Of a stretch of 64,000 bases of DNA, positions 11,088 to 48,504 are shown piece after piece; within the stretch, counting starts at the first letter, position 1, and every line of letters begins with the position of its first letter. Made by a program: the position numbers and the translations under genes. Origin of the DNA: a virus (taxonomy: Duplodnaviria > Heunggongvirae > Uroviricota > Caudoviricetes); IMG/VR virus record IMGVR_UViG_3300032241_002220, positions 25,376-89,375 of that record, one strand, 5' to 3'. A model generated the notes under the pieces. The model made no database searches. It was given only the letters and a program-made list of their open reading frames with translations, and had not been told where the DNA came from.

Positions 11088-11372
11088 ATGACATTAGCAC
11101 AACAATTAAAAGTTACAGAATTTCCATTTATTGTTAAAGATTCAAAAGGTAACCAAATCTATTTTGAAACTTCAAATGGATATTGGTGCAAATATGAATA
11201 TGATTCAGAGGGCAATAATATATATGAGGAAAATTCAAATAAAGAATGGATGAAACGTGAATTTGATTCAAAACGTTTTGTGATATATTATGAAAATTCG
11301 TACGGATCTATTACAGATAAAAGATCAAAAAGTAATGTTTCTTCTACAAAAACAAAATTGGCTATTCAGTAA
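11088..11372 (+). CDS. hypothetical protein
   Basis: 94 aa ORF directly downstream of a conserved promoter. Confidence 0.55.
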   Translation: MTLAQQLKVTEFPFIVKDSKGNQIYFETSNGYWCKYEYDSEGNNIYEENSNKEWMKREFDSKRFVIYYENSYGSITDKRSKSNVSSTKTKLAIQ

Positions 11373-34468: not shown

Positions 34469-34523
34469 AGATACATTCAGTAAGCAGGGGCAAAGTCTGA
34501 ATTAAAACAAAATGTTGCCCATA

Positions 34524-34605
34524 TAGTCAGGTGGTGGAATTGGATAGACACAACCTCGCTCGGAGGTATAAGCGCAAACTTACAGGTTCGAATCCTGTCC
34601 TGACT
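34524..34605 (+). ncRNA. tRNA-like gene (class II architecture) with defective anticodon arm
   Basis: Acceptor AGTCAGG/CCTGACT is perfect. D-arm GTG..CAC. Variable hairpin TAAGCGCAAACTTA. T-arm ACAGGTTCGAATCCTGT. The anticodon stem ACCTC/GAGGT encloses only 5 nt (GCTCG). Confidence 0.4.
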
Positions 34606-34714
34606 ACAGATACTCTAACAGGCGCCAACCTGTCCCTATGGCGGGGCTAAGTAGAGTCAGTATTTTAAAACATAAAAATCAAAAAATAGGGCCTTTGTTT
34701 TTTATTATAATACG

Positions 34715-34870
34715 TTCCGGGCCGGTGCCGGGGTAAGATCTGGTGCCGGCCGTACGGCGTATATATTATGATAGTATTAGGATACCACGCGCGCTGATGT
34801 CCATCGATACGGCGGGCGGTGGAGAAAAGGATTAGATTAAAAGACAGAGCCTCTACAAATCCTCCACCAC
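34715..34870. repeat. GC-rich palindromic island (CCGGGCCGGTGCCGGGG / GGTGCCGGCCG, CGCGCGC, GGTGGAG...CTCCACC long hairpin)
   Basis: About 60% GC over 150 bp in a roughly 30% GC genome. Repeated GGTGCCGG. Non-coding. Confidence 0.55.
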
Positions 34871-34973
34871 CGATTGTATATACCTATATACTACCCCCAT
34901 TCATGGATTGGTTTTTCGAAATGGCAAACTTTTCTAAAATCCACAAAAAACAAAAAGAAAGATCTTTATAAAA

Positions 34974-35025
34974 AATTTGGAAACCACAAAATATATACGT
35001 ATATTTAAGTATAAATTAAAACAAT
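34974..35025 (+). promoter_or_regulatory. promoter variant (TTTGGAAACCACAAAATATATACGTATATTTAAGTATAAATTAAAAC)
   Basis: ATG 35026. Shares the TATATTTAAGTATAA form with the tRNA-array promoters. Confidence 0.5.
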
Positions 35026-35412
35026 ATGAAAAAATTCGATTTACAAACAGCATTAAATCATCCCGAAAAAGTAACAGATAGTTGTAACAATAAATTTGTA
35101 AAATTCTATCTTATTAAAGAATTAAAAAAACAAACCCAATTAATAGGAATACAAGAGGATGGTTGTGGGATGTGGTATACTGAAAAAGGAAATGTATATC
35201 ATAATTCTATATCAAATTTTGATTTATGTATGCGCCCAGAAGAAAAAGTGAGTTATGTAAATGTTTATGAAAATGGTGATACGGGACCAGCCCATGATTC
35301 TATAGAATTAGTTAAAAAAAATATGGCTACGGGAGAGGTTGTGTTATGTATTTTAAAGATCACTATCACAGATGGTAAGGATGTAACTACAGAAATCGTT
35401 CACAAATATTAA
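35026..35412 (+). CDS. hypothetical protein
   Basis: 128 aa. Promoter variant upstream. Confidence 0.5.
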   Translation: MKKFDLQTALNHPEKVTDSCNNKFVKFYLIKELKKQTQLIGIQEDGCGMWYTEKGNVYHNSISNFDLCMRPEEKVSYVNVYENGDTGPAHDSIELVKKNMATGEVVLCILKITITDGKDVTTEIVHKY

Positions 35413-41582: not shown

Positions 41583-41771
41583 ATGGCCGACACAATCAAT
41601 GTTCAGAAATCAGATTTGATAAATCAACTTTTCTTTTTAAACGAAATAAAACAAGATCTTTGGGTATTTCATCCAAACAATCCCGAACAAATTAATGTTG
41701 TTCAAGAATATGAAGCTATAGTGGAAGAAATGAAATCTATAGAAGAAAAAATAGAAAGTTTGGAAAATTAA
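41583..41771 (+). CDS. hypothetical protein
   Basis: 62 aa. Confidence 0.35.
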   Translation: MADTINVQKSDLINQLFFLNEIKQDLWVFHPNNPEQINVVQEYEAIVEEMKSIEEKIESLEN

Positions 41772-41990
41772 AAAAACATTTGTATATTTATCGCGGAAAC
41801 AAGAAATTATATATATTTATATTAAACAATTAAAAATGCAATTAATATCATTACATACAAGCTGGCCTATAGAACGTAGAGATACGTTATCGCTAGGGTA
41901 TTGCTTTAGTGCGAATATTAATGTGCAAGGCAAACCAATACCAAACCAGGATACAATGGAAAAAGGGTAAGATATAAATACCAAAACATT

Positions 41991-42022
41991 AGCTCCTGGT
42001 TCAAAAGATCAGGAGCTTTTTT
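41991..42022 (+). terminator. rho-independent terminator
   Basis: AGCTCCTG-gttcaaaagat-CAGGAGCT + TTTTT, just upstream of the tRNA array. Confidence 0.65.
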
Positions 42023-42029
42023 AATTTAC

Positions 42030-42102
42030 GGTGCCTAAGCTAATCTGGTGAAAGCGCTAGACTGAAAATCTAGAGAGATAGGGTCGAAACCTATAGGTAC
42101 CA
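42030..42102 (+). tRNA. tRNA-Phe (GAA)
   Basis: Acceptor GGTGCCT/AGGTACC. Anticodon stem CTAGA/TCTAG with loop CTGAAAA. Confidence 0.75.
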
Positions 42103-42172
42103 CAAAAACATAAAAATGAAACGAAAACAGTAACGCCGCTCTGAAATACGAGTGGCATAATAGAAATAAAAT

Positions 42173-42245
42173 GCGCTCGTAGCTCAATTGGTAGAGTAGC
42201 TGGCTTTTAACCAGCGGGTTGTAGGTTCGAACCCTACCGGGCGCA
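42173..42245 (+). tRNA. tRNA-Lys (TTT)
   Basis: GCGCTCG...TAGCTCAATTGGTAGAG. Anticodon stem GCTGG/CCAGC, loop CTTTTAA. T-arm GTAGGTTCGAACCCTAC. Confidence 0.85.
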
Positions 42246-42263
42246 CTTAAAAATATAACACAG

Positions 42264-42338
42264 ACGCGTGTGTAGCTCAATTTGGTAGAGTGTCGGTCTC
42301 CAAAACCGAAGATGAGGGTTCGAGTCCCTACATGCGTG
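42264..42338 (+). tRNA. tRNA-Trp (CCA)
   Basis: Anticodon stem TCGGT/ACCGA, loop CTCCAAA. T-loop TTCGAGT. Confidence 0.8.
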
Positions 42339-42345
42339 CAAGATT

Positions 42346-42418
42346 GCCTTCATAGTTCAATGGATTAGAACACTTGGCTACGGACCAAGAAATAGGAGTT
42401 CGAATCTCTTTGAAGGTA
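42346..42418 (+). tRNA. tRNA-Arg (ACG)
   Basis: Acceptor GCCTTCA/TGAAGGT. Anticodon stem CTTGG/CCAAG, loop CTACGGA. Confidence 0.8.
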
Positions 42419-42423
42419 CAAAA

Positions 42424-42496
42424 GGTCAAATGGCCGAGATGGCGTAGGCGTATGTCTGCAAAACATACCACAACAGTTCGAATCTGTTTTTGACCT
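42424..42496 (+). tRNA. tRNA-Cys (GCA)
   Basis: Acceptor GGTCAAA/TTTGACC. Anticodon stem TATGT/ACATA, loop CTGCAAA. T-arm AACAGTTCGAATCTGTT. Confidence 0.8.
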
Positions 42497-42506
42497 CTTA
42501 AAAAAA

Positions 42507-42560
42507 ATGTTTGGCTACCTAAAAAAACAGTCGTACATTTAAGTATAAGAAGATCTTTGA
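42507..42560 (+). promoter_or_regulatory. tRNA-array internal promoter (TTTGGCTACCTAAAAAAACAGTCGTACATTTAAGTATAAGAAG)
   Basis: Same -33/-7 architecture, 20 nt 5' of tRNA-Pro. Confidence 0.55.
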
Positions 42561-42579
42561 CATATTGGGATTAATTCAA

Positions 42580-42656
42580 TCGAGAGGTCGGGCAGATGGT
42601 TATACCCGCGTGCTTTGGGAGCACGATATCGCTGGTTCGAATCCAGTTCTCTCGAC
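42580..42656 (+). tRNA. tRNA-Pro (TGG)
   Basis: Acceptor TCGAGAG/CTCTCGA. Anticodon stem CGTGC/GCACG, loop TTTGGGA. T-loop TTCGAAT. Has its own promoter-like motif upstream. Confidence 0.75.
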
Positions 42657-42663
42657 ATAAAAT

Positions 42664-42738
42664 GGGCTGGCATGTTCCAAGGCTTGGCGATTCTCCTTTG
42701 CACGGAGAGTGTGAAGAGTTCGATTCTCTTCTGGTCCA
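42664..42738 (+). tRNA. tRNA-Ala (TGC), atypical D region
   Basis: Anticodon stem TCTCC/GGAGA, loop TTTGCAC. T-arm AAGAGTTCGATTCTCTT. The acceptor needs 3 G-U pairs. Confidence 0.5.
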
Positions 42739-42743
42739 CATTC

Positions 42744-42814
42744 AGTCCCTTAGCTCAACGGAAGAGCGCTTGTTTTACATGCAAGAGGCTGTGATATCGT
42801 AATTCACAGGGACT
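42744..42814 (+). tRNA. tRNA-Val (TAC)
   Basis: Acceptor AGTCCCT/AGGGACT. D-arm GCTC..GAGC. Anticodon loop TTTACAT. T-loop ATCGTAA. Confidence 0.7.
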
Positions 42815-42891
42815 ACTCATGGTTTATTAGTATACAATGTCAATCATAGGAACTAATATTGGAGTTATACCAATTAAAAAATATAACAAAC

Positions 42892-42963
42892 GCAGATATC
42901 GTATAGCGGTTATTACTCTGGTCTTCCAAACCGGAGACGTCGGTTCGATTCCGACTATCTGCT
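42892..42963 (+). tRNA. tRNA-Gly (TCC)
   Basis: Acceptor GCAGATA/TATCTGC. Anticodon loop CTTCCAA. T-arm GTCGGTTCGATTCCGAC. Confidence 0.85.
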
Positions 42964-42968
42964 CTTAT

Positions 42969-43041
42969 AGTCCAATGATGTAACTGGCAACATGGCGTGT
43001 TTTGAGCTCGCTCTTCTAGGTTCGAATCCTGGTTGGACTAC
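42969..43041 (+). tRNA. tRNA-Gln (TTG)
   Basis: Acceptor AGTCCAA/TTGGACT. D-stem ATGT/ACAT. Anticodon loop TTTTGAG. T-arm CTAGGTTCGAATCCTGG. Confidence 0.75.
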
Positions 43042-43045
43042 ATTT

Positions 43046-43135
43046 GGAAGCATAGCCTAATTGGTAAGACAGCAGTCTTGAAAACTGCCGTGTCGGTGAT
43101 GAATCGGCTTATAGGTTCGAGTCCTATTGCTTCCG
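43046..43135 (+). tRNA. tRNA-Ser (TGA), class II
   Basis: Acceptor GGAAGCA/TGCTTCC. Anticodon stem GCAGT/ACTGC, loop CTTGAAA. About 22-nt variable arm. T-arm ATAGGTTCGAGTCCTAT. Confidence 0.85.
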
Positions 43136-43488
43136 CTAAAATAAACTAGACACTGTAAAAACCAGTGGTTGACTTAATAACTATAGGAGTAATTACCTAT
43201 GTATGCGAACAGCAATTAATCCTGACAGCAATGTTTATTTTAATATGGGTCTTTAAGCTTTAAGGTGAAGCGCATGTTTGTGGAGCATGAGAACTCGGTT
43301 CAATACCGTGATGGACCCCAACAAGGAAAGTAAAGCAACGAGGTTGTTGCCACCACCTGCTAAGTGAGTGGATCATTAAATTGATTGTGTTTCGACTACA
43401 CTGCTTTCCGCGAAATCCAATGTGTGCTGCTGCTAGCCGGAGACACAAAACAGAAGTGAAGGAACTGTTCCACATTTGGATTTTTATT

Positions 43489-43561
43489 GGAGATATAGTA
43501 GAATGGTTCAGCACACCTGTCTGATACGCAGGTAATCCAAGTTCGAGTCTTGGTATCTCCA
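43489..43561 (+). tRNA. tRNA-Ile (GAT)
   Basis: Acceptor GGAGATA/TATCTCC. Anticodon loop CTGATAC. T-arm CCAAGTTCGAGTCTTGG. Confidence 0.8.
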
Positions 43562-43571
43562 CTTATAAATT

Positions 43572-43644
43572 GGACTTGTAGCTCAGAGGCAGAGCAGGCG
43601 GCTGTTAACCGTCAGGTCGGTGATTTCGAAATTCCCCAAGTCCG
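43572..43644 (+). tRNA. tRNA-Asn (GTT), degenerate T-arm
   Basis: Acceptor GGACTTG/CAAGTCC is perfect. D-arm GCTC..GAGC. Anticodon loop CTGTTAA. T-stem pairs poorly (GGTGA TTTCGAA ATTCC). Confidence 0.55.
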
Positions 43645-43651
43645 CAAAATT

Positions 43652-43740
43652 GAGAGTAAGGTAACTATTGGTTGGTTATCAACGGCTGTAACCCGTCAGG
43701 CCCAGAAAGGGGGTAGGTTCGATTCCTACTACTCTCACCA
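43652..43740 (+). tRNA. tRNA-Tyr (GTA), class II, CCA encoded
   Basis: Acceptor GAGAGTA/TACTCTC followed by A-CCA. Anticodon loop CTGTAAC. Variable arm CCCAGAAAGGG. T-arm GTAGGTTCGATTCCTAC. Confidence 0.75.
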
Positions 43741-43761
43741 AAATAAAAAAACTTCTTAAAA

Positions 43762-43820
43762 AGAGGTTGGCTTATAGAAATCTTGTTCGTATATTTAGGT
43801 ATAAGAAAAAAGATAAGAAG
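43762..43820 (+). promoter_or_regulatory. tRNA-array internal promoter (TTGGCTTATAGAAATCTTGTTCGTATATTTAGGTATAAGAAAAAAGATAAGAAG)
   Basis: After tRNA-Tyr, before the second tRNA sub-cluster. Confidence 0.5.
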
Positions 43821-43835
43821 CTCTTTGAAAATATT

Positions 43836-43910
43836 GAAACTGTGGTAATAAGTTGAGTTACTTCGTATGGCTTATATAAAATGAACTCACTTAAGCATTC
43901 CCGGTTAAAA
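43836..43910 (+). repeat. conserved hairpin element copy 1 (GTAATAAGTTGAGTTACTTCGT ... AACTCACTTAAGC)
   Basis: A near-identical 22-nt arm recurs at 44622. Stem AAGTTGAGTT/AACTCACTT. Confidence 0.5.
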
Positions 43911-43941
43911 TCATTTAGGTGGTTAATTAGAAAGTTACTTC

Positions 43942-44015
43942 GCACGAATAGTTCAATGGTTGAACATTTTCATATCCAGAAAAAGTAACGGGTTCAATTC
44001 CCGTTTCATGCCCCA
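43942..44015 (+). tRNA. tRNA-like gene with non-standard anticodon loop ATATCCA (anticodon ATC?), CCA encoded
   Basis: Acceptor GCACGAA/TTCATGC (one C-A mismatch) + C-CCA. Canonical D-arm TAGTTCAATGGTTGAAC. Anticodon stem TTTTC/GAAAA. T-arm ACGGGTTCAATTCCCGT. Confidence 0.45.
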
Positions 44016-44067
44016 AAAAAACTTTCTTAAACATTCCCCTAAACTTATTTGATGAATAGTAAGGACC

Positions 44068-44145
44068 AGCGTTACTTCGCGTGCAAGGTGCACATTTAAA
44101 TTTGGCTTTTAAAAATCGCGGTTCAATTCCGCCTGAAACGCTACC
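44068..44145 (+). ncRNA. degenerate tRNA-like element ending in ACCA
   Basis: T-arm GCGGTTCAATTCCGC and a terminal ...GAAACGCTACCA. 5' AGCGTTA pairs with AAACGCT, but the D/anticodon region (GTGCAAGGTGCAC hairpin) does not fold as a tRNA. Confidence 0.3.
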
Positions 44146-44168
44146 AATGTTCTTTCATCATTTTTTAT

Positions 44169-44241
44169 GTTCCTGAGGACAAAATGGTTGAGTCGTCACC
44201 CTTTCAAGGTGAAGGAGCGGGATCGTTACCCGTCAGGAATA
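44169..44241 (+). tRNA. tRNA-Glu (TTC)
   Basis: Acceptor GTTCCTG/CAGGAAT (one G-U). Anticodon stem TCACC/GGTGA, loop CTTTCAA. T-arm GCGGGATCGTTACCCGT. Confidence 0.7.
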
Positions 44242-44247
44242 CAACAA

Positions 44248-44318
44248 GGTCTATTAGTGAATTGGTATCATATCTCACTGTCTATGAGAAGTGCTCGGAT
44301 CGTAACCGTGATAGACCG
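44248..44318 (+). tRNA. tRNA-Asp (GTC)
   Basis: Acceptor GGTCTAT/ATAGACC. Anticodon stem TCTCA/TGAGA, loop CTGTCTA. T-loop ATCGTAA. Confidence 0.7.
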
Positions 44319-44327
44319 CCAACAAAT

Positions 44328-44400
44328 GCTTCTATAGCTCAATGGTCAGAGCAGGACGCTTATATCGTCAAGGCTACAGGTTCGAGTCCTGTTAGAAGTA
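44328..44400 (+). tRNA. tRNA-Ile (TAT) (AUA-reading, UAU anticodon)
   Basis: Acceptor GCTTCTA/TAGAAGT. D-arm GCTC AATGGTCA GAGC. Anticodon loop CTTATAT with U33 and A37. T-arm ACAGGTTCGAGTCCTGT. Confidence 0.65.
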
Positions 44401-44417
44401 CTAAAAACAAAAATAAA

Positions 44418-44609
44418 ATGAAAAAAATAGTAATCTACAAAGATGTAGAAAATGTAAACGGTAAAAAAGAACGTCATATTCTTCGTTCAATCCAGCCTAG
44501 TTATGATTGGCAAGGATATGCGAAAAATAAAAACAGTATGATAGATTCTGAAGTTAGGAATTTAGCACGTGCTTTAGAACCTAGTTTTACAGGATTCTAT
44601 GTAGCATAA
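44418..44609 (+). CDS. hypothetical small protein
   Basis: MKKIVIYKDVENVNGKK... The track ORF 44184..44609 starts inside tRNA genes, so it is trimmed to the first ATG after tRNA-Ile(TAT). Confidence 0.4.
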   Translation: MKKIVIYKDVENVNGKKERHILRSIQPSYDWQGYAKNKNSMIDSEVRNLARALEPSFTGFYVA

Positions 44610-44621
44610 AGATATTTGCTG

Positions 44622-44690
44622 TAGTAATAAGTTGAGTTACTTCGTCTGACTTTTTAATTCATAAATGAAAAAACAACTCACTTAAACTTT
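44622..44690 (+). repeat. conserved hairpin element copy 2 (GTAATAAGTTGAGTTACTTCGT ... AACTCACTTAAAC)
   Basis: Second copy, upstream of the tRNA-Met/Thr/Arg/Leu sub-cluster. Confidence 0.5.
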
Positions 44691-44712
44691 CTCAGTAAAC
44701 TTATTTTAAAAT

Positions 44713-44787
44713 TGTGGGATGCGTAGAAAATGGTTATCTCGTCAGTCTCATAAGCTGAAGTTCCCGGTTCAAGTCCGGGTCCCGCAA
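44713..44787 (+). tRNA. tRNA-Met (CAT)
   Basis: Acceptor TGTGGGA/TCCCGCA (one G-U). Anticodon stem TCAGT/GCTGA, loop CTCATAA. T-arm CCCGGTTCAAGTCCGGG. Confidence 0.7.
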
Positions 44788-44911
44788 CATAAGTCCTTGA
44801 TCAGGAACCGAAGATATGGTCGGCCTCTTGTGTAAACAATGCACACTGCTACCATCTAAACCGTAGGTTAGCACAGTTCACAACTCTGGGGATATTTTAA
44901 AAGTTGTATTT

Positions 44912-44986
44912 GGACGCATAGTTTAGTTGGAAAAACACTTGCCTTGTAAGCATGAGTTCTCGGGTCGGTTCCGGGTGTGTCCTCCA
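44912..44986 (+). tRNA. tRNA-Thr (TGT), CCA encoded, unusual T-loop
   Basis: Acceptor GGACGCA/TGTGTCC + T-CCA. Anticodon loop CTTGTAA (stem has one U-U). T-arm CTCGG GTCGGTT CCGGG. Confidence 0.6.
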
Positions 44987-44991
44987 CGCAT

Positions 44992-45064
44992 GGTTCTATC
45001 GTTCAATGGATTAGGACAATTGCCTTCTAAGCAATTTATGCTGGTTCGAATCCAGCTAGAACTA
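44992..45064 (+). tRNA. tRNA-Arg (TCT)
   Basis: Acceptor GGTTCTA/TAGAACT. Anticodon stem ATTGC/GCAAT, loop CTTCTAA. T-arm GCTGGTTCGAATCCAGC. Confidence 0.85.
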
Positions 45065-45070
45065 CAACCC

Positions 45071-45152
45071 GCTCCGATGGTGTAATTGGCAGCCACGCTA
45101 GACTTAGGATCTAGTGTCGTAAGACGTAAGGGTTCGAGTCCCTTTTGGAGCA
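45071..45152 (+). tRNA. tRNA-Leu (TAG), class II
   Basis: Acceptor GCTCCGA/TTGGAGC. Anticodon stem CTAGA/TCTAG, loop CTTAGGA. Variable hairpin GTCGTAAGACG. T-arm AAGGGTTCGAGTCCCTT. Confidence 0.8.
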
Positions 45153-45162
45153 CTTAACAAAA

Positions 45163-45248
45163 TATTTGGCTAAGCAAAAAATTGGTCTTATATTTACGAC
45201 ATAATAAAGCAATTAAAAATTCTCTAACAATAAAAAATTAGTAGTAAA
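45163..45248 (+). promoter_or_regulatory. promoter for the Ro60-like gene (TTTGGCTAAGCAAAAAATTGGTCTTATATTTACGACATAATAAAG)
   Basis: ATG 45249. Confidence 0.5.
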
Positions 45249-46790
45249 ATGGCACGTTACAATTCAAAAGCAACAACAGTTACTCCAACAGTAACAAACC
45301 ACCAAGGTGGAACAGGGTACAAATACGACCCAAAAACAGAATTAATCTCAATATTAGCAACAGGCTTGGATAACAAGTATTATGAAAAAGTAGGTGAACG
45401 TGAACAACGTTTGGCCAAAGTCATAGAAGAAGTAGCTAAAAAAGACAAACTATTTGCTGCAAAAGCTCTAGTGTATGCTCGTACCGTAATGGGACAAAGA
45501 ACAGTAACACACTTTGGTGCTGTAGAATTAGCTAAAGTATTAGGAGGTGATTCTCTAGGTTCTCGTTTCTTTTCAAAGCGTGAACGTAAACAAAACAAAG
45601 GTGGTATTATCTTCCGTTTGGATGATATGCTTGAAATTGCTGCTTGTTATCAAGCACGTAATGAAGGTAAACCATTTTCAAATGCAATCAAGAAAGGTTT
45701 TAAATCCGCTCTTGAATCAGCAGATGAATATGAATTAGCTAAATATCAAGCTAAAAATCGCGATTTATCTTTAGTTGACATCGTTAACTTAGTACACCCA
45801 AAACCATCACCAAGAATGGCTCCAGTGTTTGCTAAATTGATGAAAGGTGAACTTAAACAGTTTAATACTGTAGAAGATAAAAATACTAAAGCTGGTCAAG
45901 AAGTTGCTGCTAAAGTAAAAGAAGGTAAAATTACTAAAGAAGAAGCAGCAGTTGAATTAGCGCAAGCTAAAGAAGACAACTATGCCGAATTGATTAAAAC
46001 ACGTAAAATCGGTTATTTAGCTTTATTACGTAATTTACGCAATATTCTAAAAACAGGTGCCGATAAAGAAATTATAAACGGTGCTTGTGAACTATTAACT
46101 GATCAAAAGTTAATTAAACAATCTTTAGTGTTTCCACACCAAATAGATTTAGCATTAGAAATAATGTTGGATGAATTTGGTTCAAGTAAAGTTAAACCAT
46201 TTGTTAAAGCATTAAACACCGCTTACGAACTAGCGATACCAAACCTAACAGAATTATTTCCAAATGGCCGCACAGCGGTTGTATTTGACAGTTCAGGTTC
46301 AATGTCAACATCTATTAGTTTAGCTAATAAAAATAATGGTTCAGAATCAGCCATTTCAAAAGCAGCATTAATTGCCGCTACTTTAGCTAAAGGTATTGAA
46401 GCCGATGTTTATCACTTTGCTGATCGTTGTGATGAAATCAAGTTTAACCCACTTGATACAGTTAACACACTTAAGAATCAATTTTTAAATAAACAAGGTT
46501 CAGTTGGTTATGGTACTGCCTTTGCCAGTATTATGAAAAAATTAGGTGATCAATATGACCGTGTGTTTGTAATATCGGATATGCAAGGTAGTGATTATCT
46601 TGAAAGAGCTAATTACAAAAATCTTCACATATATTCAATCGATATTGCCGGTTATGGTACAACAATGTTCAAACCAGGAAACAAAGTTTATTCATTGTTT
46701 GGTTATTCTGCCGATATTTATGAATTGATAAAGAAAGTGGAAATCGATCCAAAAGCGTTAATCGCCGAAATCGAAGCAATAGAAATTTAA
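45249..46790 (+). CDS. rsr: Ro60-like TROVE domain + vWA domain RNA-binding protein
   Basis: 513 aa. N-terminal QGGTGYKYDPKTELISILATGLDNKYYE resembles the TROVE signature. C-terminal TAVVFDSSGSMS is a vWA MIDAS DxSxS. Domain order as in Ro60/Rsr. Confidence 0.6.
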   Translation: MARYNSKATTVTPTVTNHQGGTGYKYDPKTELISILATGLDNKYYEKVGEREQRLAKVIEEVAKKDKLFAAKALVYARTVMGQRTVTHFGAVELAKVLGGDSLGSRFFSKRERKQNKGGIIFRLDDMLEIAACYQARNEGKPFSNAIKKGFKSALESADEYELAKYQAKNRDLSLVDIVNLVHPKPSPRMAPVFAKLMKGELKQFNTVEDKNTKAGQEVAAKVKEGKITKEEAAVELAQAKEDNYAELIKTRKIGYLALLRNLRNILKTGADKEIINGACELLTDQKLIKQSLVFPHQIDLALEIMLDEFGSSKVKPFVKALNTAYELAIPNLTELFPNGRTAVVFDSSGSMSTSISLANKNNGSESAISKAALIAATLAKGIEADVYHFADRCDEIKFNPLDTVNTLKNQFLNKQGSVGYGTAFASIMKKLGDQYDRVFVISDMQGSDYLERANYKNLHIYSIDIAGYGTTMFKPGNKVYSLFGYSADIYELIKKVEIDPKALIAEIEAIEI

Positions 46791-46813
46791 AATTTTCCAA
46801 TAAAGTAAAATGA

Positions 46814-46838
46814 CTGGGTGTTTCTACACCCGGTTTTT
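46814..46838 (+). terminator. rho-independent terminator after the Ro60-like gene
   Basis: CTGGGTG-tttcta-CACCCGG + TTTTT. Confidence 0.65.
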
Positions 46839-47035
46839 ATTTAAAGTTCTTTGAAATATTATACTATAGTAAGGGTTTGTGAGGTACTTCGTATTTATAA
46901 ACTAGCTTAGAAATAAGCATTTTAATTATACACATATCAGATAAAAACCTCGTACTAGGTGCCTCTTGAAAATAACCAACAACAAGAGCAAATAAGTACA
47001 AACTCACCCCAGTAATCTTAGTATATTTTTTTTTT

Positions 47036-47120
47036 GCCTGGGTGTCGTAAAGGTAGCCGAGGTGGACTTAAAATCCACTGAACTGTAAGGTTCGTGCGGG
47101 TTCGATTCCCGCTCCAGGTA
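47036..47120 (+). tRNA. tRNA-Leu (TAA), class II
   Basis: Anticodon stem GTGGA/TCCAC, loop CTTAAAA. Variable hairpin GAACTGTAAGGTTC. T-arm GCGGGTTCGATTCCCGC. Acceptor GCCTGGG/TCCAGGT has G-U at both ends. Confidence 0.75.
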
Positions 47121-47122
47121 CT

Positions 47123-47584
47123 ATGAAAAAAGCAATTTATCTAGACGACGTCAGAACACCAATCAATGGTGATGTTGAATGGATTGTGGTTAGAAATTAT
47201 AATGAATTTGTATCTAAAGTTCAAGAAATTGGATTGGAAAATATTGATGTAATTTCTTTAGATCATGATCTTGGGGATAGTGCTATGAATGAATATTTTA
47301 AAAATGTTGCTCCTAATTATACTTTGGATTACAATAATATTACCGAAAAAACGGGATATGATTGTGCAAAATGGTTAGTTGAATATTTTTATATAAAAAA
47401 TCCTAATTGGAAATATAAAAGTAGAGATGTTAAACAAGGAAGTCTATTTCGATTTCCAAAAGTATTTACCCATTCAGCTAATCCTATAGGTTCAGCTAAT
47501 ATTATGGGTTATATAAATAATTTTTTAATGAATGAAGTTCAAAGCCAAACCTGTGTAAGAGTTCAAATTCAACACACAATTTAA
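47123..47584 (+). CDS. hypothetical protein
   Basis: 153 aa. ATG 3 nt after tRNA-Leu(TAA). Confidence 0.5.
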   Translation: MKKAIYLDDVRTPINGDVEWIVVRNYNEFVSKVQEIGLENIDVISLDHDLGDSAMNEYFKNVAPNYTLDYNNITEKTGYDCAKWLVEYFYIKNPNWKYKSRDVKQGSLFRFPKVFTHSANPIGSANIMGYINNFLMNEVQSQTCVRVQIQHTI

Positions 47585-47595
47585 AAATTTATGAA

Positions 47596-48051
47596 ATGAA
47601 ACAGTTTAAAACATTAAGCGCTCATAGAAAAGTCGACTTAATACCATACATAAGAGAATATGTTGCTAATCATCCAGAAACAGAAGTTTTAATTGGTTGT
47701 GACTCTCAAAACAGAAAAAAAGAAACTGTTTATGCTATTGTGGTAGGTTTATATACACCTGGAAAAGGCGCTCACGTTTTGTATTCTAAATTTTTTATTC
47801 AACGTGAACGAGATAACGTAGTTCGTTTATTAAACGAAGTATGGAATTCTGTTGAAACCGCAGAACAAATTAAAAATGAAATAGGAATAAAAGCAACTTG
47901 GATTGATATTGACTTAAACCCAGATCCAAAATATCGTTCAAACCAAGCACTGGCGAGTGCAGTTGGTGTTGTAACAGGTATGGGTTATAATGTAAGACAT
48001 AAAGGTAATTCACCTGTTATGACTTATGCAGCAGATCATCTTGTTAAATAA
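47596..48051 (+). CDS. hypothetical protein
   Basis: 151 aa. Stop 2 nt before the tmRNA 5' end. Confidence 0.5.
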   Translation: MKQFKTLSAHRKVDLIPYIREYVANHPETEVLIGCDSQNRKKETVYAIVVGLYTPGKGAHVLYSKFFIQRERDNVVRLLNEVWNSVETAEQIKNEIGIKATWIDIDLNPDPKYRSNQALASAVGVVTGMGYNVRHKGNSPVMTYAADHLVK

Positions 48052-48052
48052 C

Positions 48053-48448
48053 GGGGTCGACCGGTTTTGACAGCAATTGAAGTAGAGAAAGATGATGCAG
48101 GCAGTGTTAGTATTGGAAACACTTAAATAACCTATACAAACAATAAACGCAAACGTAGAATTATCTACTTGGACAATCGAAGATGCTTTGGCATTTGTAG
48201 ATGGTGAATTCGCACTAGCTGCCTAGTTCACCCAGGGGCTTCACACACGCGCCTTGCAACAGAAGTGTATTTAAAAAGGAACTAAGAGGCTTACCTTTTC
48301 AAAAAAGAGTACTCGGTAGGTTTTCAGTCCCAATCGTCCGAGAAGCGGAACTGGTATTTTGTCTAGTTAGAAAACGAGACTAAGCCTGTGAATGAGTCGA
48401 TTTAGACTTATTGTTTGGACGGGAGTTCGACTCTCCCCGACTCCACAA
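48053..48448 (+). ncRNA. ssrA: tmRNA (ssrA)
   Basis: 5' GGGGTCG pairs with 3' CGACTCC-A. The 3' tRNA-like domain GGACGGGAGTTCGACTCTCCCCGACTCCAC matches the tmRNA TLD consensus. Internal reading frame 48149-48226 encodes ANVELSTWTIEDALAFVDGEFALAA then TAG, the characteristic ...ALAA-stop tag. No overlapping CDS on either strand. Confidence 0.8.
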
Positions 48449-48452
48449 ATTA

Positions 48453-48481
48453 ACACCAACATTTCTGTTGGTGTTTTTTTA
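48453..48481 (+). terminator. rho-independent terminator after tmRNA
   Basis: ACACCAACA-tttc-TGTTGGTGT + TTTTTTT. Confidence 0.8.
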
Positions 48482-48504
48482 TCTTTATTATATATTTATA
48501 TATA

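What the first reader, a model, noticed from the sequence alone, without database searches (positions are those of the whole stretch)
42030..47120. Dense phage tRNA array: about 22 canonical tRNAs plus non-canonical members, split into promoter-driven sub-clusters
Hand folding finds Phe, Lys, Trp, Arg(ACG), Cys, Pro, Ala, Val, Gly, Gln, Ser, Ile(GAT), Asn, Tyr, Glu, Asp, Ile(TAT), Met, Thr, Arg(TCT), Leu(TAG) and Leu(TAA). That is nearly a full decoding set biased to A/U-ending codons, which fits an AT-rich phage compensating for host tRNA supply. Sub-clusters are separated by the same promoter motif used for protein genes (42507, 43762) and are bounded by a terminator at 41991.
Basis: seen in the sequence. 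Interest (0 to 1): 0.7.

Follow-up and report, generated by a model that had tools for sequence, protein, structure and literature searches.

The report
Phage tRNA array with Y-RNA mimics
This stretch of a large AT-rich phage genome holds a complete minimal set of 24 tRNA genes, which is ordinary for big phages, but several "odd tRNAs" in it look like Y-RNA-type partner RNAs of a phage Ro60 protein encoded inside the same array.

Summary
ARAGORN and Rfam at default thresholds tRNA-type loci on the + strand in 42030-47120, against one in the other 59 kb. Ala is recovered only at a relaxed threshold. His(GTG) and a Ser(GCU) gene were missed. There are 24 decoding-type tRNAs, one per codon box, covering all 20 amino acids. 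Only CGG is unread, and it makes up 2 of 456 Arg codons. The promoter motif and the terminator at 41991 are real sequence features.

The "non-canonical members" are something else. Five elements share a covariation-supported scaffold: E1 43833-43916, A 43917-44040, B 44047-44168, E2 44612-44707 and F 46861-47024. The scaffold is an outer helix, an internal loop (UAGUAA / UUUCUC), an inner helix and an invariant GUUACUUCG, enclosing a variable cargo. In A and B the cargo is a tRNA-like cloverleaf. The elements flank a full-length Ro60/TROVE gene (45249-46790). The same scaffold lies beside TROVE genes in 23 of 27 related phage loci, including a crAss-like phage where the cargos are annotated tRNA-Tyr and tRNA-Lys. 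Relatives with permuted cargo give sub-threshold YrlA matches.

Best reading: an ordinary phage tRNA array fused to a Ro60/Y-RNA, cREC, RNase-H-like and tmRNA module for RNA maintenance. The Y-RNA variant is new. Ro60 binding is untested.

The parts
41760..41790 (+). Promoter-like motif copy (TTGG-N21-TATATTTA) upstream of a 44-aa ORF and the terminator
41991..42027 (+). Intrinsic-terminator-like hairpin (11 bp) plus T-run, 5 nt before tRNA-Phe
42030..42102 (+). tRNA-Phe(GAA)
   Evidence: Rfam 57.6 bits; ARAGORN at -ps80 only
42173..42245 (+). tRNA-Lys(UUU)
   Evidence: 71.4 bits
42264..42339 (+). tRNA-Trp(CCA)
   Evidence: 58.1 bits
42346..42418 (+). tRNA-Arg(ACG)
   Evidence: 65.3 bits
42424..42496 (+). 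tRNA-Cys(GCA)
   Evidence: 57.3 bits
42511..42541 (+). Promoter-like motif TTGGCT-N17-TACATTTA
42581..42655 (+). tRNA-Pro(UGG)
   Evidence: 46.3 bits
42664..42739 (+). Probable tRNA-Ala(UGC) with aberrant D-arm; G3:U70 present
   Evidence: ARAGORN -ps80 only; no Rfam hit; same position as Ala(tgc) in L006 and L008
42744..42815 (+). tRNA-Val(UAC), T-loop ATCGTAA (A54/U58)
   Evidence: (50.3 bits)
42892..42963 (+). tRNA-Gly(UCC)
   Evidence: 63.3 bits
42969..43040 (+). tRNA-Gln(UUG)
   Evidence: 47.8 bits
43046..43135 (+). tRNA-Ser(UGA), type II
   Evidence: 54 bits
   Evidence: (40.7 bits)
   Evidence: ARAGORN -ps80 calls it 'Val(cac)'; loop CTGCTAA invariant in orthologs, which ARAGORN calls Ser(gct); compensatory G-C to A-U change
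43489..43561 (+). tRNA-Ile(GAU)
   Evidence: 59 bits
43572..43644 (+). tRNA-Asn(GUU)
   Evidence: 44.4 bits
43652..43740 (+). tRNA-Tyr(GUA), type II, CCA encoded
   Evidence: ARAGORN default; in Rfam only the tRNA-Sec model matches, at 30.2 bits
43767..43797 (+). Promoter-like motif TTGGCT-N17-TATATTTA
43833..43916 (+). Y-RNA-like scaffold E1 (short cargo); an insertion relative to L004
   Evidence: 76.5 bits; in the model's seed
43917..44040 (+). Y-RNA-like scaffold A. Outer helix TTTAGG/CCTAAA, inner helix AGAAAGTT/AACTTTCT. The cargo 43942-44015 is a tRNA-like cloverleaf that tools call 'tRNA-Asp(atc)': loop AUAUCCA, C37, CCA encoded.
   Evidence: 49 bits RF00005; 19.4 bits, E 0.13; the minimum-energy fold recovers scaffold plus cloverleaf; the anticodon differs in orthologs
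44047..44168 (+). Y-RNA-like scaffold B. Outer helix TGATGAA/TTCATCA. The cargo 44068-44145 is a tRNA-like domain with a T-loop UUCAAUU, a GG-containing D-like hairpin and an ACCA end. It is conserved directly upstream of tRNA-Glu in relatives.
   Evidence: 29.6 bits, E 4.6e-4, not in the seed; 32 pairs, 95.1% paired, 10 compensatory pairs
44169..44241 (+). tRNA-Glu(UUC), T-loop ATCGTTA
   Evidence: Rfam 45.6 bits; ARAGORN -ps80
44248..44321 (+). tRNA-Asp(GUC), CCA encoded, T-loop ATCGTAA
   Evidence: (42.4 bits)
44328..44400 (+). tRNA-Ile(UAU)
   Evidence: 68.1 bits
44418..44609 (+). Small ORF (63 aa) of unknown function inside the array, conserved in L004 and L009
   Evidence: (no Pfam family)
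44612..44707 (+). Y-RNA-like scaffold E2 (short cargo); 94% identical to the L004 copy while its flanks are about 76% identical
   Evidence: 79.8 bits; in the seed
44713..44788 (+). tRNA-Met(CAU), irregular D-arm (bulged stem)
   Evidence: Rfam 33.7 bits; loop CTCATAA
44912..44986 (+). tRNA-Thr(UGU), CCA encoded
   Evidence: 52.1 bits
44992..45064 (+). tRNA-Arg(UCU)
   Evidence: 64.1 bits
45071..45152 (+). tRNA-Leu(UAG)
   Evidence: 51.9 bits
45166..45196 (+). Promoter-like motif before the TROVE gene
45249..46790 (+). Ro60/TROVE protein gene (513 aa)
   Evidence: Pfam TROVE 44.3 bits; full-length match to Thermus phage phiLo Ro60 9KOP/9L5Y, E 4.4e-18, and to Xenopus Ro60 1YVP; 96 phage records with homologs
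46812..46835 (+). Terminator-like hairpin after the TROVE gene
46861..47024 (+). Y-RNA-like scaffold F. It has GGUACUUCG, outer helix ATACTA/TAGTAT and a structured cargo of about 110 nt, followed by a T10 run. The same position right after the TROVE gene is occupied in relatives.
47036..47120 (+). tRNA-Leu(UAA)
   Evidence: 47.8 bits
47123..47584 (+). cREC_REC (cyclic-phosphate processing receiver) domain protein
   Evidence: Pfam 70.8 bits
47596..48051 (+). RNase H-like (PF04308, YkuK-type) protein
   Evidence: Pfam 65.3 bits
48053..48448 (+). tmRNA; tag probably ANVELSTWTIEDALAFVDGEFALAA
   Evidence: Rfam 100.1 bits; ARAGORN; tag extended by comparison with L004
48452..48475 (+). Terminator-like hairpin after the tmRNA

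Best explanation
The region is an RNA island of a large AT-rich tailed phage. It combines two things.

(1) An ordinary phage tRNA array. It holds 24 decoding-type tRNA genes, one per codon box, covering all 20 amino acids. They are probably transcribed as polycistronic precursors from phage promoters of the form TTTGG-N19-21-GTAYATTTA and matured by host enzymes; only five loci encode CCA. This would let the phage translate its A/U-ending codons even if host tRNAs become limiting or are cleaved (inferred).

(2) An RNA surveillance and repair module built around a phage Ro60 (TROVE) protein. Five RNAs around that gene share a Y-RNA architecture. The 5' and 3' ends pair into an outer and an inner helix. 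These are separated by a conserved internal loop (5' U-AG-UAA, 3' UUU-CU-C). The invariant GUUACUUCG follows; its UUAC aligns with the YUAY motif of YrlA. The helices enclose a variable module. In elements A and B the module is a normal-order tRNA-like cloverleaf with a canonical elbow and an encoded CCA, but its anticodon loop is non-functional or not conserved. In E1 and E2 it is a short loop. In F it is a larger structured domain.

I propose that these RNAs are the Y-RNA partners of the phage Ro60. As in bacteria, they would gate or tether the Ro60 ring to RNA-processing enzymes, with the tRNA-shaped modules recruiting tRNA-recognising factors. The neighbouring cREC, RNase-H-like, tmRNA and distant RNA ligase genes would act in the same task of keeping tRNA and translation working.

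Shown: the tRNA calls, the scaffold structure and its covariation, the linkage to TROVE genes, and the Ro60 homology. Inferred: expression, processing, Ro60 binding and biological role.
For: tRNA set. Fit to codon usage.

Promoter family and terminators.

Ro60 gene.

Clustering of the motif: the exact 9-mer GTTACTTCG occurs 4 times in the 64-kb window, all on the + strand within 0.8 kb. A fifth copy, GGTACTTCG, lies right after the TROVE gene.

Linkage to TROVE: the 9-mer is present on the TROVE-coding strand in 23 of 27 TROVE loci. These include lineages with only 27-30% TROVE identity.

Helices: nearly every copy has an inner helix, and the copies I inspected by eye also have an outer helix with different sequences but maintained pairing.

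Covariation of the scaffold: an alignment of 13 short-cargo copies gives 16 pairs, 14 of them with compensatory changes. 93.7% of cells are paired, against 65.8% when shuffled. The covariation score is 0.76 against 0.25 (0 of 500 shuffles reach it), and slid controls give 0.08-0.25.

Independent detection of A and B: a covariance model built only from short-cargo copies finds scaffold B (29.6 bits, E 4.6e-4) and scaffold A (19.4 bits, E 0.13), and nothing else in 64 kb above 15.3 bits.

Scaffold B with its cloverleaf: 32 pairs, 95.1% paired, 10 compensatory pairs, 0 of 500 shuffles.

Cargo A is not a stable decoder: the anticodon is ATC here, TTC in L004 and L009, and TCC in L006, with C37 in the window and L004/L009 copies (A37 in L006).

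Link to YrlA: relatives carrying the same scaffold with T-AS-D permuted cargo match Rfam YrlA below threshold. L005 2275-2384 scores 35.3 bits and L022 12460-12571 scores 33.3 bits. In the L022 alignment, UUAC lies on YrlA's CUAc and the UAGUAG loop lies on the GNCGAA region.

crAss-like phage csAssE-Sib: the annotated tRNA-Tyr and tRNA-Lys just upstream of the 'Ro sixty-related protein' lie in the same scaffold.

Literature: Y RNAs are encoded next to Ro60, have a stem-loop-stem with a CGAA motif, and mimic tRNA (PMC4201824). Thermus phage phiLo Ro60 binds two Y-like RNAs encoded upstream of its gene (PMC12135203). The Ro60-like gp130 of phage Bas63 sits next to a tRNA stretch, and its authors suspected that some of those 'tRNAs' are Y RNAs (PMC11482910). 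Ro/TROVE and cREC are placed in phage RNA-repair systems (PMC7824862).
Against: No window element reaches any score against Rfam YrlA. The relatives reach only half of the gathering score.

The experimentally important CGAA motif is absent from the five window copies, which read CUUCGU, CUUCGC and similar. It is present as CUUCGAA in more distant relatives.

The tRNA-like cargo is in normal order rather than permuted, and some relatives carry cargo that scores as an excellent tRNA (L012 2767-2839, 72.8 bits). The scaffold could therefore be a pre-tRNA leader-trailer structure.

All 27 loci were collected through their TROVE gene, so the reverse association is weak. Of 120 pattern hits in IMG/VR, most of them chance matches, only 10 had a TROVE gene in the short stretch retrieved.

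There are no expression, processing or binding data. The host, and so its tRNA pool, is unknown.
Confidence: 0.68

Rival explanations
1. The scaffolds are pre-tRNA processing structures. Leader-trailer helices, like those flanking rRNAs, would direct RNase III, E or P to excise the enclosed tRNA or tRNA-like RNA. Ro60 would be unrelated, or would only chaperone these precursors.
For: Some cargos in relatives are high-scoring tRNAs: L012 Leu(tag) at 72.8 bits, and L019/L020 Lys(ttt) at 53 bits. In A the 9-mer ends exactly at the tRNA-like 5' end. A and B encode CCA.
Against: E1, E2 and many relatives keep the complete scaffold with only a 15-35 nt loop as cargo, so there is nothing to excise. 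F carries a non-tRNA domain. The other 22 or so tRNAs of the array lack the scaffold. The internal loops and the 9-mer are conserved in sequence across very distant phages, which suggests a protein-binding site rather than a generic double-stranded RNA.
Confidence: 0.15
2. The tRNA-shaped cargos A and B are decoys or baits for host tRNA-targeting defence nucleases, or for tRNA-modifying enzymes. They would act independently of Ro60, and the scaffold would only stabilise them.
For: A and B keep the tRNA elbow and acceptor end but have non-functional anticodon loops with C37 and a drifting anticodon. Phage tRNAs are known to counter anticodon nucleases (PMC10264068, PMC11555353).
Against: This does not explain the scaffold copies without tRNA cargo. 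It also does not explain the tight, strand-specific linkage of the GUUACUUCG scaffold to TROVE genes across distant phages.
Confidence: 0.1
3. The repeated elements are small mobile DNA elements of MITE type with terminal inverted repeats, or recombination scars that shuffle cassettes inside tRNA arrays. They would have no RNA-level function.
For: E1 is an insertion of about 77 nt relative to L004. The tmRNA gene sits at different places in nearly identical phages. Several copies occur per genome.
Against: Between copies the helices differ in sequence but stay complementary, while the loops stay constant. This is the opposite of what copies of a transposable element show. G-U pairs occur only when the + strand is read. 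All copies lie on the transcribed strand.
Confidence: 0.04
4. All non-canonical loci are simply decaying tRNA pseudogenes in a fast-evolving array.
For: Ala, Met and Ser(GCU) have irregular arms. Relaxed ARAGORN calls are common by chance.
Against: B is conserved with compensatory changes over lineages that are about 80% identical in TROVE protein sequence. E2 is more conserved than its flanks. The scaffold flanks are conserved across distant phages.
Confidence: 0.03

Closest known systems
YrlA-type bacterial and phage Y RNAs (Rfam RF02553; Chen et al. 2014, PMC4201824)
   Same: They are encoded next to a Ro60/TROVE gene, often with several per locus. The 5' and 3' ends form an outer and an inner helix around an internal loop. 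A YUAY motif (here UUAC) follows the inner helix. A tRNA-like module with T- and D-arm features is present. Relatives of this phage with the same scaffold give YrlA matches of 31-35 bits.
   Different: No window copy matches the YrlA model. The tRNA-like module is in normal 5'-D-AC-T-3' order with an open acceptor end and encoded CCA, not the permuted T-AS-D order. The GNCGAAN0-1G motif is replaced by UAGUAA/UGGUGA at its position, and CGAA appears only as CUUCGAA in distant relatives. The cargo can be absent or can be a full-scoring tRNA.
Thermus phage phiLo Ro60 with Yrl1 and Yrl2 (PMC12135203; PDB 9KOP, 9L5Y)
   Same: It is a phage-encoded full-length Ro60 homolog, and the best solved-structure match to the window protein (E 4.4e-18, residues 16-502). 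Two or more Y-like RNAs are encoded beside the gene, with a stem-bulge-stem architecture.
   Different: The phiLo RNAs were defined by a CGAA motif and have no tRNA-like cargo described. phiLo's Ro60 locus has no tRNA array in the 3 kb either side. The only TTACTTCG there lies in what reads as a coding sequence.
tRNA arrays of large phages: T4-like, KVP40, mycobacteriophage cluster C (Bxz1, with about 30 tRNAs, a tmRNA and a Ro homolog) and huge phages (from my own knowledge; also PMC6409571, PMC10264068)
   Same: Dense, same-strand clusters of 20-30 tRNAs, dominated by U34 and G34 anticodons and matched to phage codon usage. In Bxz1-like phages they are accompanied by a tmRNA and a Ro60 homolog.
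   Different: Here the set is an exact one-per-codon-box minimal set that includes Ile(UAU). The Ro60 gene and its RNAs are interleaved with the tRNAs.
Escherichia phage Bas63 gp130, a Ro60-like protein that counters the Ppl defence (preprint PMC11482910)
   Same: A Ro60-like gene lies directly beside a stretch of annotated tRNA genes. The authors speculated that some of those tRNAs are Y RNAs.
   Different: No sequence analysis of the RNAs was given there. I did not examine the Bas63 sequence.
GOLLD RNA (RF02032) in phage tRNA islands (PMC12286853)
   Same: It is found in relatives of this phage directly beside the TROVE gene and the scaffolds: L005, L011, L012 and L013 at 239-288 bits.
   Different: It is absent from this window at the gathering score. 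It is a large multimeric RNA unrelated in structure to the scaffolds.

Membership tests
tRNA (Rfam RF00005 / ARAGORN) | Cloverleaf scoring at or above the curated threshold (29 bits) or called by ARAGORN at default settings | tested here: met
   23 loci in 42030-47120. Ala 42664 and Ser(GCU) 43325 are called only at a relaxed threshold.
tRNA (decoding function) | 7-nt anticodon loop with U33 and a purine at 37, and an anticodon conserved among orthologs | tested here: not met
   This row refers to elements A (43942-44015) and B (44069-44145) only. Both have C37. A's anticodon is ATC, TTC or TCC in different orthologs, and B's loop changes length. By my reading of the structures and alignments, the loop criterion is met for the other 24 genes; anticodon conservation was checked only for Ser(GCU) and Met(CAU).
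tRNA (decoding function) | Aminoacylation and use on the ribosome | not testable with these tools
   Needs acylation assays or tRNA-seq.
Y RNA / YrlA (RF02553) | Encoded adjacent to a Ro60/TROVE gene | tested here: met
   Five copies lie within 1.4 kb upstream and 0.1-0.25 kb downstream of the TROVE gene 45249-46790. The 9-mer is present in 23 of 27 TROVE loci, always on the coding strand.
Y RNA / YrlA (RF02553) | 5' and 3' ends pair into a stem interrupted by a conserved internal loop or bulge | tested here: met
   16 pairs, 14 with compensatory changes, 0 of 500 shuffles. Scaffold B gives 32 pairs.
Y RNA / YrlA (RF02553) | GNCGAAN0-1G / CGAA Ro-binding motif near the 5' end | tested here: inconclusive
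   The window copies have UAGUAA/UGGUAA at the equivalent loop and CUUCG(U/C) after the inner helix. CUUCGAA appears in L011-L027. There is no exact GNCGAA.
Y RNA / YrlA (RF02553) | Permuted tRNA-like domain (T arm, closed 'acceptor' stem-loop, D arm) | tested here: not met
   The window cargos are in normal order (A, B) or not tRNA-like (E1, E2, F). Permuted cargo occurs in relatives: L005 2265, L022 12477 and 12701, L012 2940.
Y RNA / YrlA (RF02553) | Score at or above the Rfam gathering threshold (69 bits) | tested here: not met
   There is no genuine YrlA hit in the window; the only match (22 bits, 42217-42291) spans the Lys-Trp junction and looks spurious. Relatives score 28.5-35.5 bits.
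Y RNA / YrlA (RF02553) | Physical binding to Ro60 | not testable with these tools
   Needs EMSA or co-immunoprecipitation.
Ro60 / TROVE protein | TROVE domain above the Pfam cut-off, and full-length similarity to solved Ro60 rings | tested here: met
   PF05731 at 44.3 bits against a cut-off of 23. 9KOP/9L5Y match over residues 16-502, E 4.4e-18; 1YVP E 2e-4.
tmRNA (RF00023) | Covariance-model score at or above 47 bits, and a tag reading frame ending in ALAA | tested here: met
   100.1 bits at 48053-48448. The ARAGORN tag ends ...EFALAA.
GOLLD RNA (RF02032) | Match at or above 150 bits | tested here: not met
   No match in the window. It is present in relatives L005 and L011-L013.

The most novel reading that the evidence does not exclude
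The GUUACUUCG scaffold may define a previously unrecognised Y-RNA subfamily in phages with TROVE genes. It is seen here in freshwater phages, possibly of Cytophagales, and in a gut crAss-like phage. In this subfamily Ro60 would be tethered to whole, normal-order tRNA cloverleaves. Some of these are currently annotated as ordinary tRNA genes, for example tRNA-Tyr and tRNA-Lys of csAssE-Sib and 'tRNA-Asp(atc)' here. The phage Ro60 ribonucleoprotein would then work directly on the tRNA pool. It could act as a chaperone or repair platform for phage tRNAs, or as a tRNA-shaped decoy against host tRNA-targeting defences.
Probability: 0.3. Interest if true: 0.75.

Novelty: new variant of a known kind. 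Interest (0 to 1): 0.52.

Why it matters
The tRNA array itself adds one more example to a well-known class. It is a clean one: a one-per-codon-box set in which the only codon left unread is one the phage hardly uses.

The Y-RNA-like scaffolds matter for three reasons.

1. Annotation. They show that some loci tRNA finders call in phage arrays are probably not tRNAs. This affects tRNA counts and codon-compensation analyses. A public crAss-like genome carries two such annotations.

2. Testability. They give a concrete, sequence-defined candidate ligand for phage Ro60 proteins. The role of these proteins is largely open, although one was recently reported to counter a defence system.

3. Context. 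They link Ro60, tRNA mimics, tmRNA, cREC and, in relatives, GOLLD RNA into one recurring phage RNA island. This may help explain what these orphan RNAs do.

Tried and rejected
- No close cultured relative. A megablast of 42000-48500 against 50,697 phage records found only a 66-nt tRNA match.
- Rfam YrlA found no genuine match in the window, even in a 1-kb search at E up to 10.
- I first read the promoter as a Bacteroidota -33/-7 type. The canonical TTTG-N18-21-TAnnTTTG is not enriched (2 found against 3.4 expected, both on the wrong strand). Only the phage's own TAYATTTA variant is enriched. It also fits a sigma-70-like TTGGCT-N17-TATATT. No host inference is drawn from it.
- tRNA-Ile(UAU) is not a C-to-T point mutant of the CAU tRNA at the same position in L004. 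The two sequences are too different.
- The TTACTTCGG upstream of phiLo Ro60 is not a homologous scaffold. It lies in what reads as an NYN-like coding sequence (MERIIAYVDGFNLYFGL...).
- An own-versus-cross duplex-energy control on 133 motif instances from the IMG/VR pattern scan was uninformative. Most pattern hits are chance matches in coding DNA (inner helix p = 0.001, outer helix p = 0.36).
- The spacers 44789-44911 and 43412-43488 show no fold better than shuffles (z +0.45 and -0.64). They are conserved only in the near-identical L001-L003.
- ARAGORN -ps80 calls 'Arg(tcg)' on the - strand at 43673 and 'Thr(ggt)' at 47134. I rejected both: one is antisense to tRNA-Tyr and the other is inside the cREC ORF. 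The background rate is 0.46 calls per kb.
- A search for relatives of ORF 35026-35412 found nothing.
A comparison with the host tRNA set was not possible.

Full report

Yes. ARAGORN at default settings tRNA genes between 42173 and 47121, all on the + strand. Rfam's tRNA model at its gathering score in 42030-47120, and 22 in a focused search. The union is 23 loci in 5.1 kb. The remaining 59 kb holds a single odd tRNA-like locus at 34525.

- Phe(GAA) and Glu(TTC) come from Rfam (57.6 and 45.6 bits) and from ARAGORN at a relaxed threshold.
- Met(CAT) at 44713-44788 scores 33.7 bits and has a CTCATAA loop and an irregular D-arm.
- Ala(TGC) at 42664-42739 is the weakest. It appears only in ARAGORN at -ps80 and has no Rfam hit. 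It does have the G3:U70 pair, a normal anticodon loop and T-arm, and it sits where relatives have a canonical Ala(tgc).

ARAGORN at -ps80 makes 27 calls in the 58.8 kb outside the array. I therefore accepted relaxed calls only with independent support.

- His(GTG) at 43247-43318, with an encoded G-1 opposite C73.
- A type-II Ser(GCU) at 43325-43411. Relaxed ARAGORN mislabels it 'Val(cac)'. Its CTGCTAA loop is invariant across orthologs that ARAGORN calls Ser(gct). Compared with L005 and L006, the window copy carries a compensatory G-C to A-U change in the anticodon stem.

**2. The decoding set**

There are 24 decoding-type genes: Phe GAA, Lys UUU, Trp CCA, Arg ACG, Cys GCA, Pro UGG, Ala UGC, Val UAC, Gly UCC, Gln UUG, Ser UGA, His GUG, Ser GCU, Ile GAU, Asn GUU, Tyr GUA, Glu UUC, Asp GUC, Ile UAU, Met CAU, Thr UGU, Arg UCU, Leu UAG and Leu UAA. 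This is exactly one tRNA per codon box and covers all 20 amino acids.

By standard wobble rules (established knowledge) only CGG is left unread. This assumes that U34 reads whole four-codon boxes and that A34 of Arg is deaminated to inosine.

I counted 15,757 codons in 64 ORFs of at least 100 aa. 82.5% end in A or T. ATA makes up 45% of Ile codons (591 of 1315), which fits the high-scoring tRNA-Ile(UAU) at 68.1 bits. CGG is used 2 times in 456 Arg codons. The set therefore fits the phage's own usage.

Only Tyr, Asp(GUC), Thr and the two mimics A and B encode CCA. Whether the set compensates for the host's tRNA pool cannot be judged, because the host is unknown. The only hint is that the phage's UDP-galactopyranose mutase is 66-70% identical to genes of freshwater Aquirufa and Cytophagaceae.

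**3. Transcription signals**

TTGGCT-N17-TAnATTTA occurs five times in the window against 0.47 expected, always on the + strand. The copies lie at 11358, 23604, 42511, 43767 and 45166.

The relaxed form TTGG-N19-21-TA[TCG]ATTTA has 19 copies on the + strand and none on the - strand. The core GTA[TCG]ATTTA has 26 copies on the + strand and 1 on the - strand. Most copies lie 19-24 nt before an ATG. The same element thus precedes protein genes, two tRNA blocks and the TROVE gene.

Terminator-like hairpins lie at 41991-42017, at 46812-46835 (after the TROVE gene) and at 48452-48475 (after the tmRNA). The first lies 5 nt before tRNA-Phe and downstream of a promoter copy at 41760. The Phe-Cys block therefore has no motif of its own. 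All of this is sequence evidence only.

**4.

The ORF 45249-46790 (513 aa) has a TROVE domain (44.3 bits). It aligns over residues 16-502 with the solved Ro60 of Thermus phage phiLo (9KOP/9L5Y, E 4.4e-18) and more weakly with Xenopus Ro60. Homologs occur in 96 phage records.

Downstream lie tRNA-Leu(UAA), a cREC_REC protein (70.8 bits), a YkuK-type RNase-H-like protein (65.3 bits) and a tmRNA (100.1 bits). An RNA ligase lies at 25663-26799. Comparative genomic work places Ro/TROVE and cREC in phage RNA-repair systems (PMC7824862).

**5. The non-canonical members**

The exact 9-mer GTTACTTCG occurs four times in the window, at 43857, 43934, 44071 and 44636. All copies are on the + strand within 0.8 kb. 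GGTACTTCG follows at 46883, just after the TROVE gene.

I fetched 27 loci encoding TROVE relatives from IMG/VR, at 99% down to 27% identity. The close relatives carry similar arrays. The 9-mer is present on the TROVE-coding strand in 23 of the 27, including the most distant lineages.

The copies I inspected have the same anatomy, in this order:
- an outer helix;
- a bulged U and a 2-bp step (AG:CU, or GG:CC in other copies);
- a 5' loop UAA or UGA;
- an inner helix of 9-10 bp;
- (G)UUACUUCG;
- a cargo;
- the 3' strand of the inner helix;
- a 3' loop NNNUUU;
- the 3' strand of the outer helix.

The helices differ in sequence between copies but stay complementary. G-U pairs appear only when the + strand is read.

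The covariation evidence is as follows.
- An alignment of 13 short-cargo copies from seven phage lineages gives 16 consensus pairs, 14 of them with compensatory double changes.
- 93.7% of cells are paired, against 65.8% after shuffling. The covariation score is 0.76 against 0.25, with 0 of 500 shuffles reaching it. Slid controls give 0.08-0.25.
- A covariance model built from those 13 copies was run without filters over the whole window. It returns its two seed members (E2 at 79.8 bits and E1 at 76.5 bits).
- It also returns two non-seed elements, placing a long insertion where their cargo sits: B at 44047-44168 (29.6 bits, E 4.6e-4) and A at 43917-44040 (19.4 bits, E 0.13). Nothing else in the window exceeds 15.3 bits.
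- F at 46861-47024 has the same outer and inner helices and loops around a structured cargo of about 110 nt. The same position right after the TROVE stop codon is occupied in L004-L010 and L014.

**6. The tRNA-shaped cargos**

Cargo A (43942-44015) is what ARAGORN calls 'tRNA-Asp(atc)' and what Rfam scores at 49 bits. It has a normal elbow (GG in the D-loop, T-loop UUCAAUU) and an encoded CCA. Its anticodon loop is AUAUCCA, with a pyrimidine at position 37. The 'anticodon' is ATC here, TTC in L004 and L009, and TCC in L006. The minimum-energy fold of 43917-44040 recovers both scaffold helices around the cloverleaf.

Cargo B (44068-44145) has an 8-bp acceptor-like stem containing the conserved A-A mismatch, a GG-containing hairpin, an A/U-rich arm whose loop changes length between relatives, a T-arm and an ACCA end. 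It is conserved directly upstream of tRNA-Glu in five lineages. On that alignment the scaffold plus cloverleaf comprises 32 pairs. 95.1% of cells are paired, 10 pairs show compensatory changes, 0 of 500 shuffles reach this, and slid controls score at most 0.042.

These two are therefore conserved, structured RNAs, but not plausible decoders.

**7. Relation to known Y RNAs**

Bacterial Y RNAs are encoded beside Ro60. Their ends pair into a stem with an internal loop that carries the Ro-binding GNCGAAN0-1G motif. YrlA RNAs carry a YUAY motif followed by a permuted tRNA-like domain (PMC4201824). Thermus phage phiLo Ro60 binds two such RNAs encoded upstream of its gene, and their CGAA motif matters for binding (PMC12135203).

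Relatives of this phage have the GUUACUUCG scaffold around a permuted T-AS-D cargo, and these give sub-threshold matches to Rfam YrlA (gathering score 69 bits):
- L005 2275-2384, 35.3 bits;
- L022 12460-12571, 33.3 bits (E 1.6e-5 in a 501-nt search);
- L019, 35.5 bits;
- L027, 31.8 bits.

In the L022 alignment our UUAC falls on YrlA's conserved CUAc, and our 5' loop falls on the CGAAUG region. The topology and one motif therefore correspond.

Three things do not fit. No window copy matches the YrlA model. The window copies lack CGAA; distant relatives read CUUCGAA. The window cargos are in normal order or are absent. On these grounds I file the elements as Y-RNA-like, meaning a new variant, and not as YrlA members.

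The crAss-like phage csAssE-Sib shows the practical consequence. Its annotated tRNA-Tyr and tRNA-Lys, immediately upstream of a 'Ro sixty-related protein', both sit in this scaffold. A preprint on phage Bas63 independently suspected that some tRNAs next to its Ro60-like anti-defence gene are Y RNAs (PMC11482910).

**8. Mechanism, and what is inferred**

Shown:
- gene content;
- RNA structure and covariation;
- linkage to TROVE genes;
- Ro60 homology.

Inferred:
- The array supplies a self-sufficient decoding set during infection.
- The five scaffold RNAs bind the phage Ro60 through the conserved loop and/or the GUUACUUCG.
- Their variable modules, including tRNA-shaped ones, recruit other factors, as Y RNAs do with PNPase in bacteria.
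- The module works with cREC, the RNase-H-like protein, RNA ligase and tmRNA to keep tRNAs and ribosomes functional. This may be directed against host tRNA-targeting defences (PMC10264068, PMC11555353).

The main rival is that the helices are pre-tRNA leader-trailer processing stems. Some relatives do carry excellent tRNAs as cargo (L012, 72.8 bits). However, the cargo-less copies and the sequence-conserved loops argue against this. A mobile-element reading is contradicted by covarying helices combined with constant loops.

One weakness remains. The loci were collected through TROVE, so the reverse association is barely tested. Of 120 IMG/VR stretches matching TAGTAA-N9-11-GTTACTTCG, most of them chance hits, 10 contained a TROVE gene. 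For comparison, TROVE homologs occur in about 0.2% of phage records.

**9. Verdict**

The dense tRNA array is real and is an ordinary member of a well-known class. The added value is that the 'non-canonical members' belong to a Ro60-linked, Y-RNA-like scaffold family that can carry whole tRNA-shaped modules and is mis-annotated as tRNA in public genomes. That is a new variant of a known kind. It is moderately interesting and directly testable.

Noticed in passing
window 34525-34607 (context 34469-35025); also L005 about 3112, L006 about 5293 and 5680, L007 about 5680, L014 about 2979: This is an odd tRNA-like element (ARAGORN 'Glu(ctc)', 83 nt; Rfam tRNA 36.8 bits only in a small search). Some loci hold up to 7 copies. 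The 130 unique elements are 51-160 nt long. They share an invariant acceptor stem (GTCAGGT/CCTGAC), an invariant T-arm and a covarying D-arm. Where the anticodon and variable arms should be there is a hypervariable stretch of 13-90 nt. The 3' tail is TAC(A/T), with no CCA. ARAGORN at default settings calls only 19 of 129, with scattered anticodons. In the window's relatives the element sits inside the tRNA array. No literature match was found.
   Followed up: partly
window 34470-34900: A 557-nt, GC-richer intergenic stretch around that tRNA-like element folds better than shuffles (dG -134.9 against -113.1 kcal/mol, z = -3.9). It includes a long-range pairing of GGTGGTGGA with TCCACCACC about 330 nt apart. 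No Rfam family matches. It may be a large structured RNA.
   Followed up: partly
window 48053-48448 compared with L003 4095-4493 (also L001, L002): The phage tmRNA (100 bits; likely 25-aa tag ANVELSTWTIEDALAFVDGEFALAA) lies after the RNase-H-like gene in the window. In phages with 99% identical TROVE it lies between tRNA-Tyr and scaffold E1. The junction coincides with about 30 nt shared by the 3' ends of tRNA-Tyr and the tmRNA, which suggests relocation by recombination between tRNA-like ends.
   Followed up: partly
L005 5491-5917, L011 3519-3933, L012 3913-4328, L013 4489-4905: GOLLD RNA (239-288 bits) lies directly beside the TROVE gene and the GUUACUUCG scaffolds in four related phage lineages. 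It is absent from this window. I did not find a Ro60-GOLLD neighbourhood described: the GOLLD structure paper does not mention Ro60 or TROVE.
   Followed up: partly
window 42744-42815 (Val), 44169-44241 (Glu), 44248-44321 (Asp): Three tRNAs have T-loops reading AUCGUAA or AUCGUUA instead of UUCGAAU. Positions 54 and 58 are swapped (A54/U58), which would keep a 54-58 pair but remove the usual T54. Orthologs of Glu in L005 and L006 have the canonical loop.
   Followed up: no
L230 (csAssE-Sib, OR575929) 4666-4738 and 4811-4884: The annotated tRNA-Tyr and tRNA-Lys of this crAss-like phage lie directly upstream of its 'Ro sixty-related protein'. Each is embedded in the GUUACUUCG scaffold, with inner and outer helices, and they lack encoded CCA. 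They are probably Y-RNA modules rather than ordinary tRNAs.
   Followed up: partly
window, whole length (for example 2681, 18468, 22286, 27587, 33891, 37943, 39315): A phage promoter-like family (T)TTGG-N19-21-(C)GTAYATTTA has 19-26 copies on the + strand and 0-1 on the - strand. Most copies lie 19-24 nt upstream of an ATG. A second short box, TTTGA(A/C)A(A/T)ATT, or AAANNATT, precedes the outer helix of the scaffolds.
   Followed up: partly
window 44418-44609: A 63-aa ORF sits inside the tRNA array between tRNA-Ile(UAU) and scaffold E2. It is conserved at about 76% DNA identity in L004 and L009 and has no Pfam or NCBIfam family.
   Followed up: no
window 42135-42156: A stable hairpin (GCCGCUC...GAGUGGC, dG -12.5, z = -4.2) lies in the spacer between tRNA-Phe and tRNA-Lys, with no T-run. 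It may be a processing or protein-binding site.
   Followed up: no
L005 4387-4586: A group I intron (60.7 bits) lies in the tRNA array region of a relative with 81% TROVE identity.
   Followed up: no
window 6163-7257: The phage UDP-galactopyranose mutase gene is 66-70% identical to genes in freshwater Aquirufa, Cytophagaceae and Sandaracinomonas genomes. This is a weak hint that the host is a freshwater member of the Cytophagales.
   Followed up: partly
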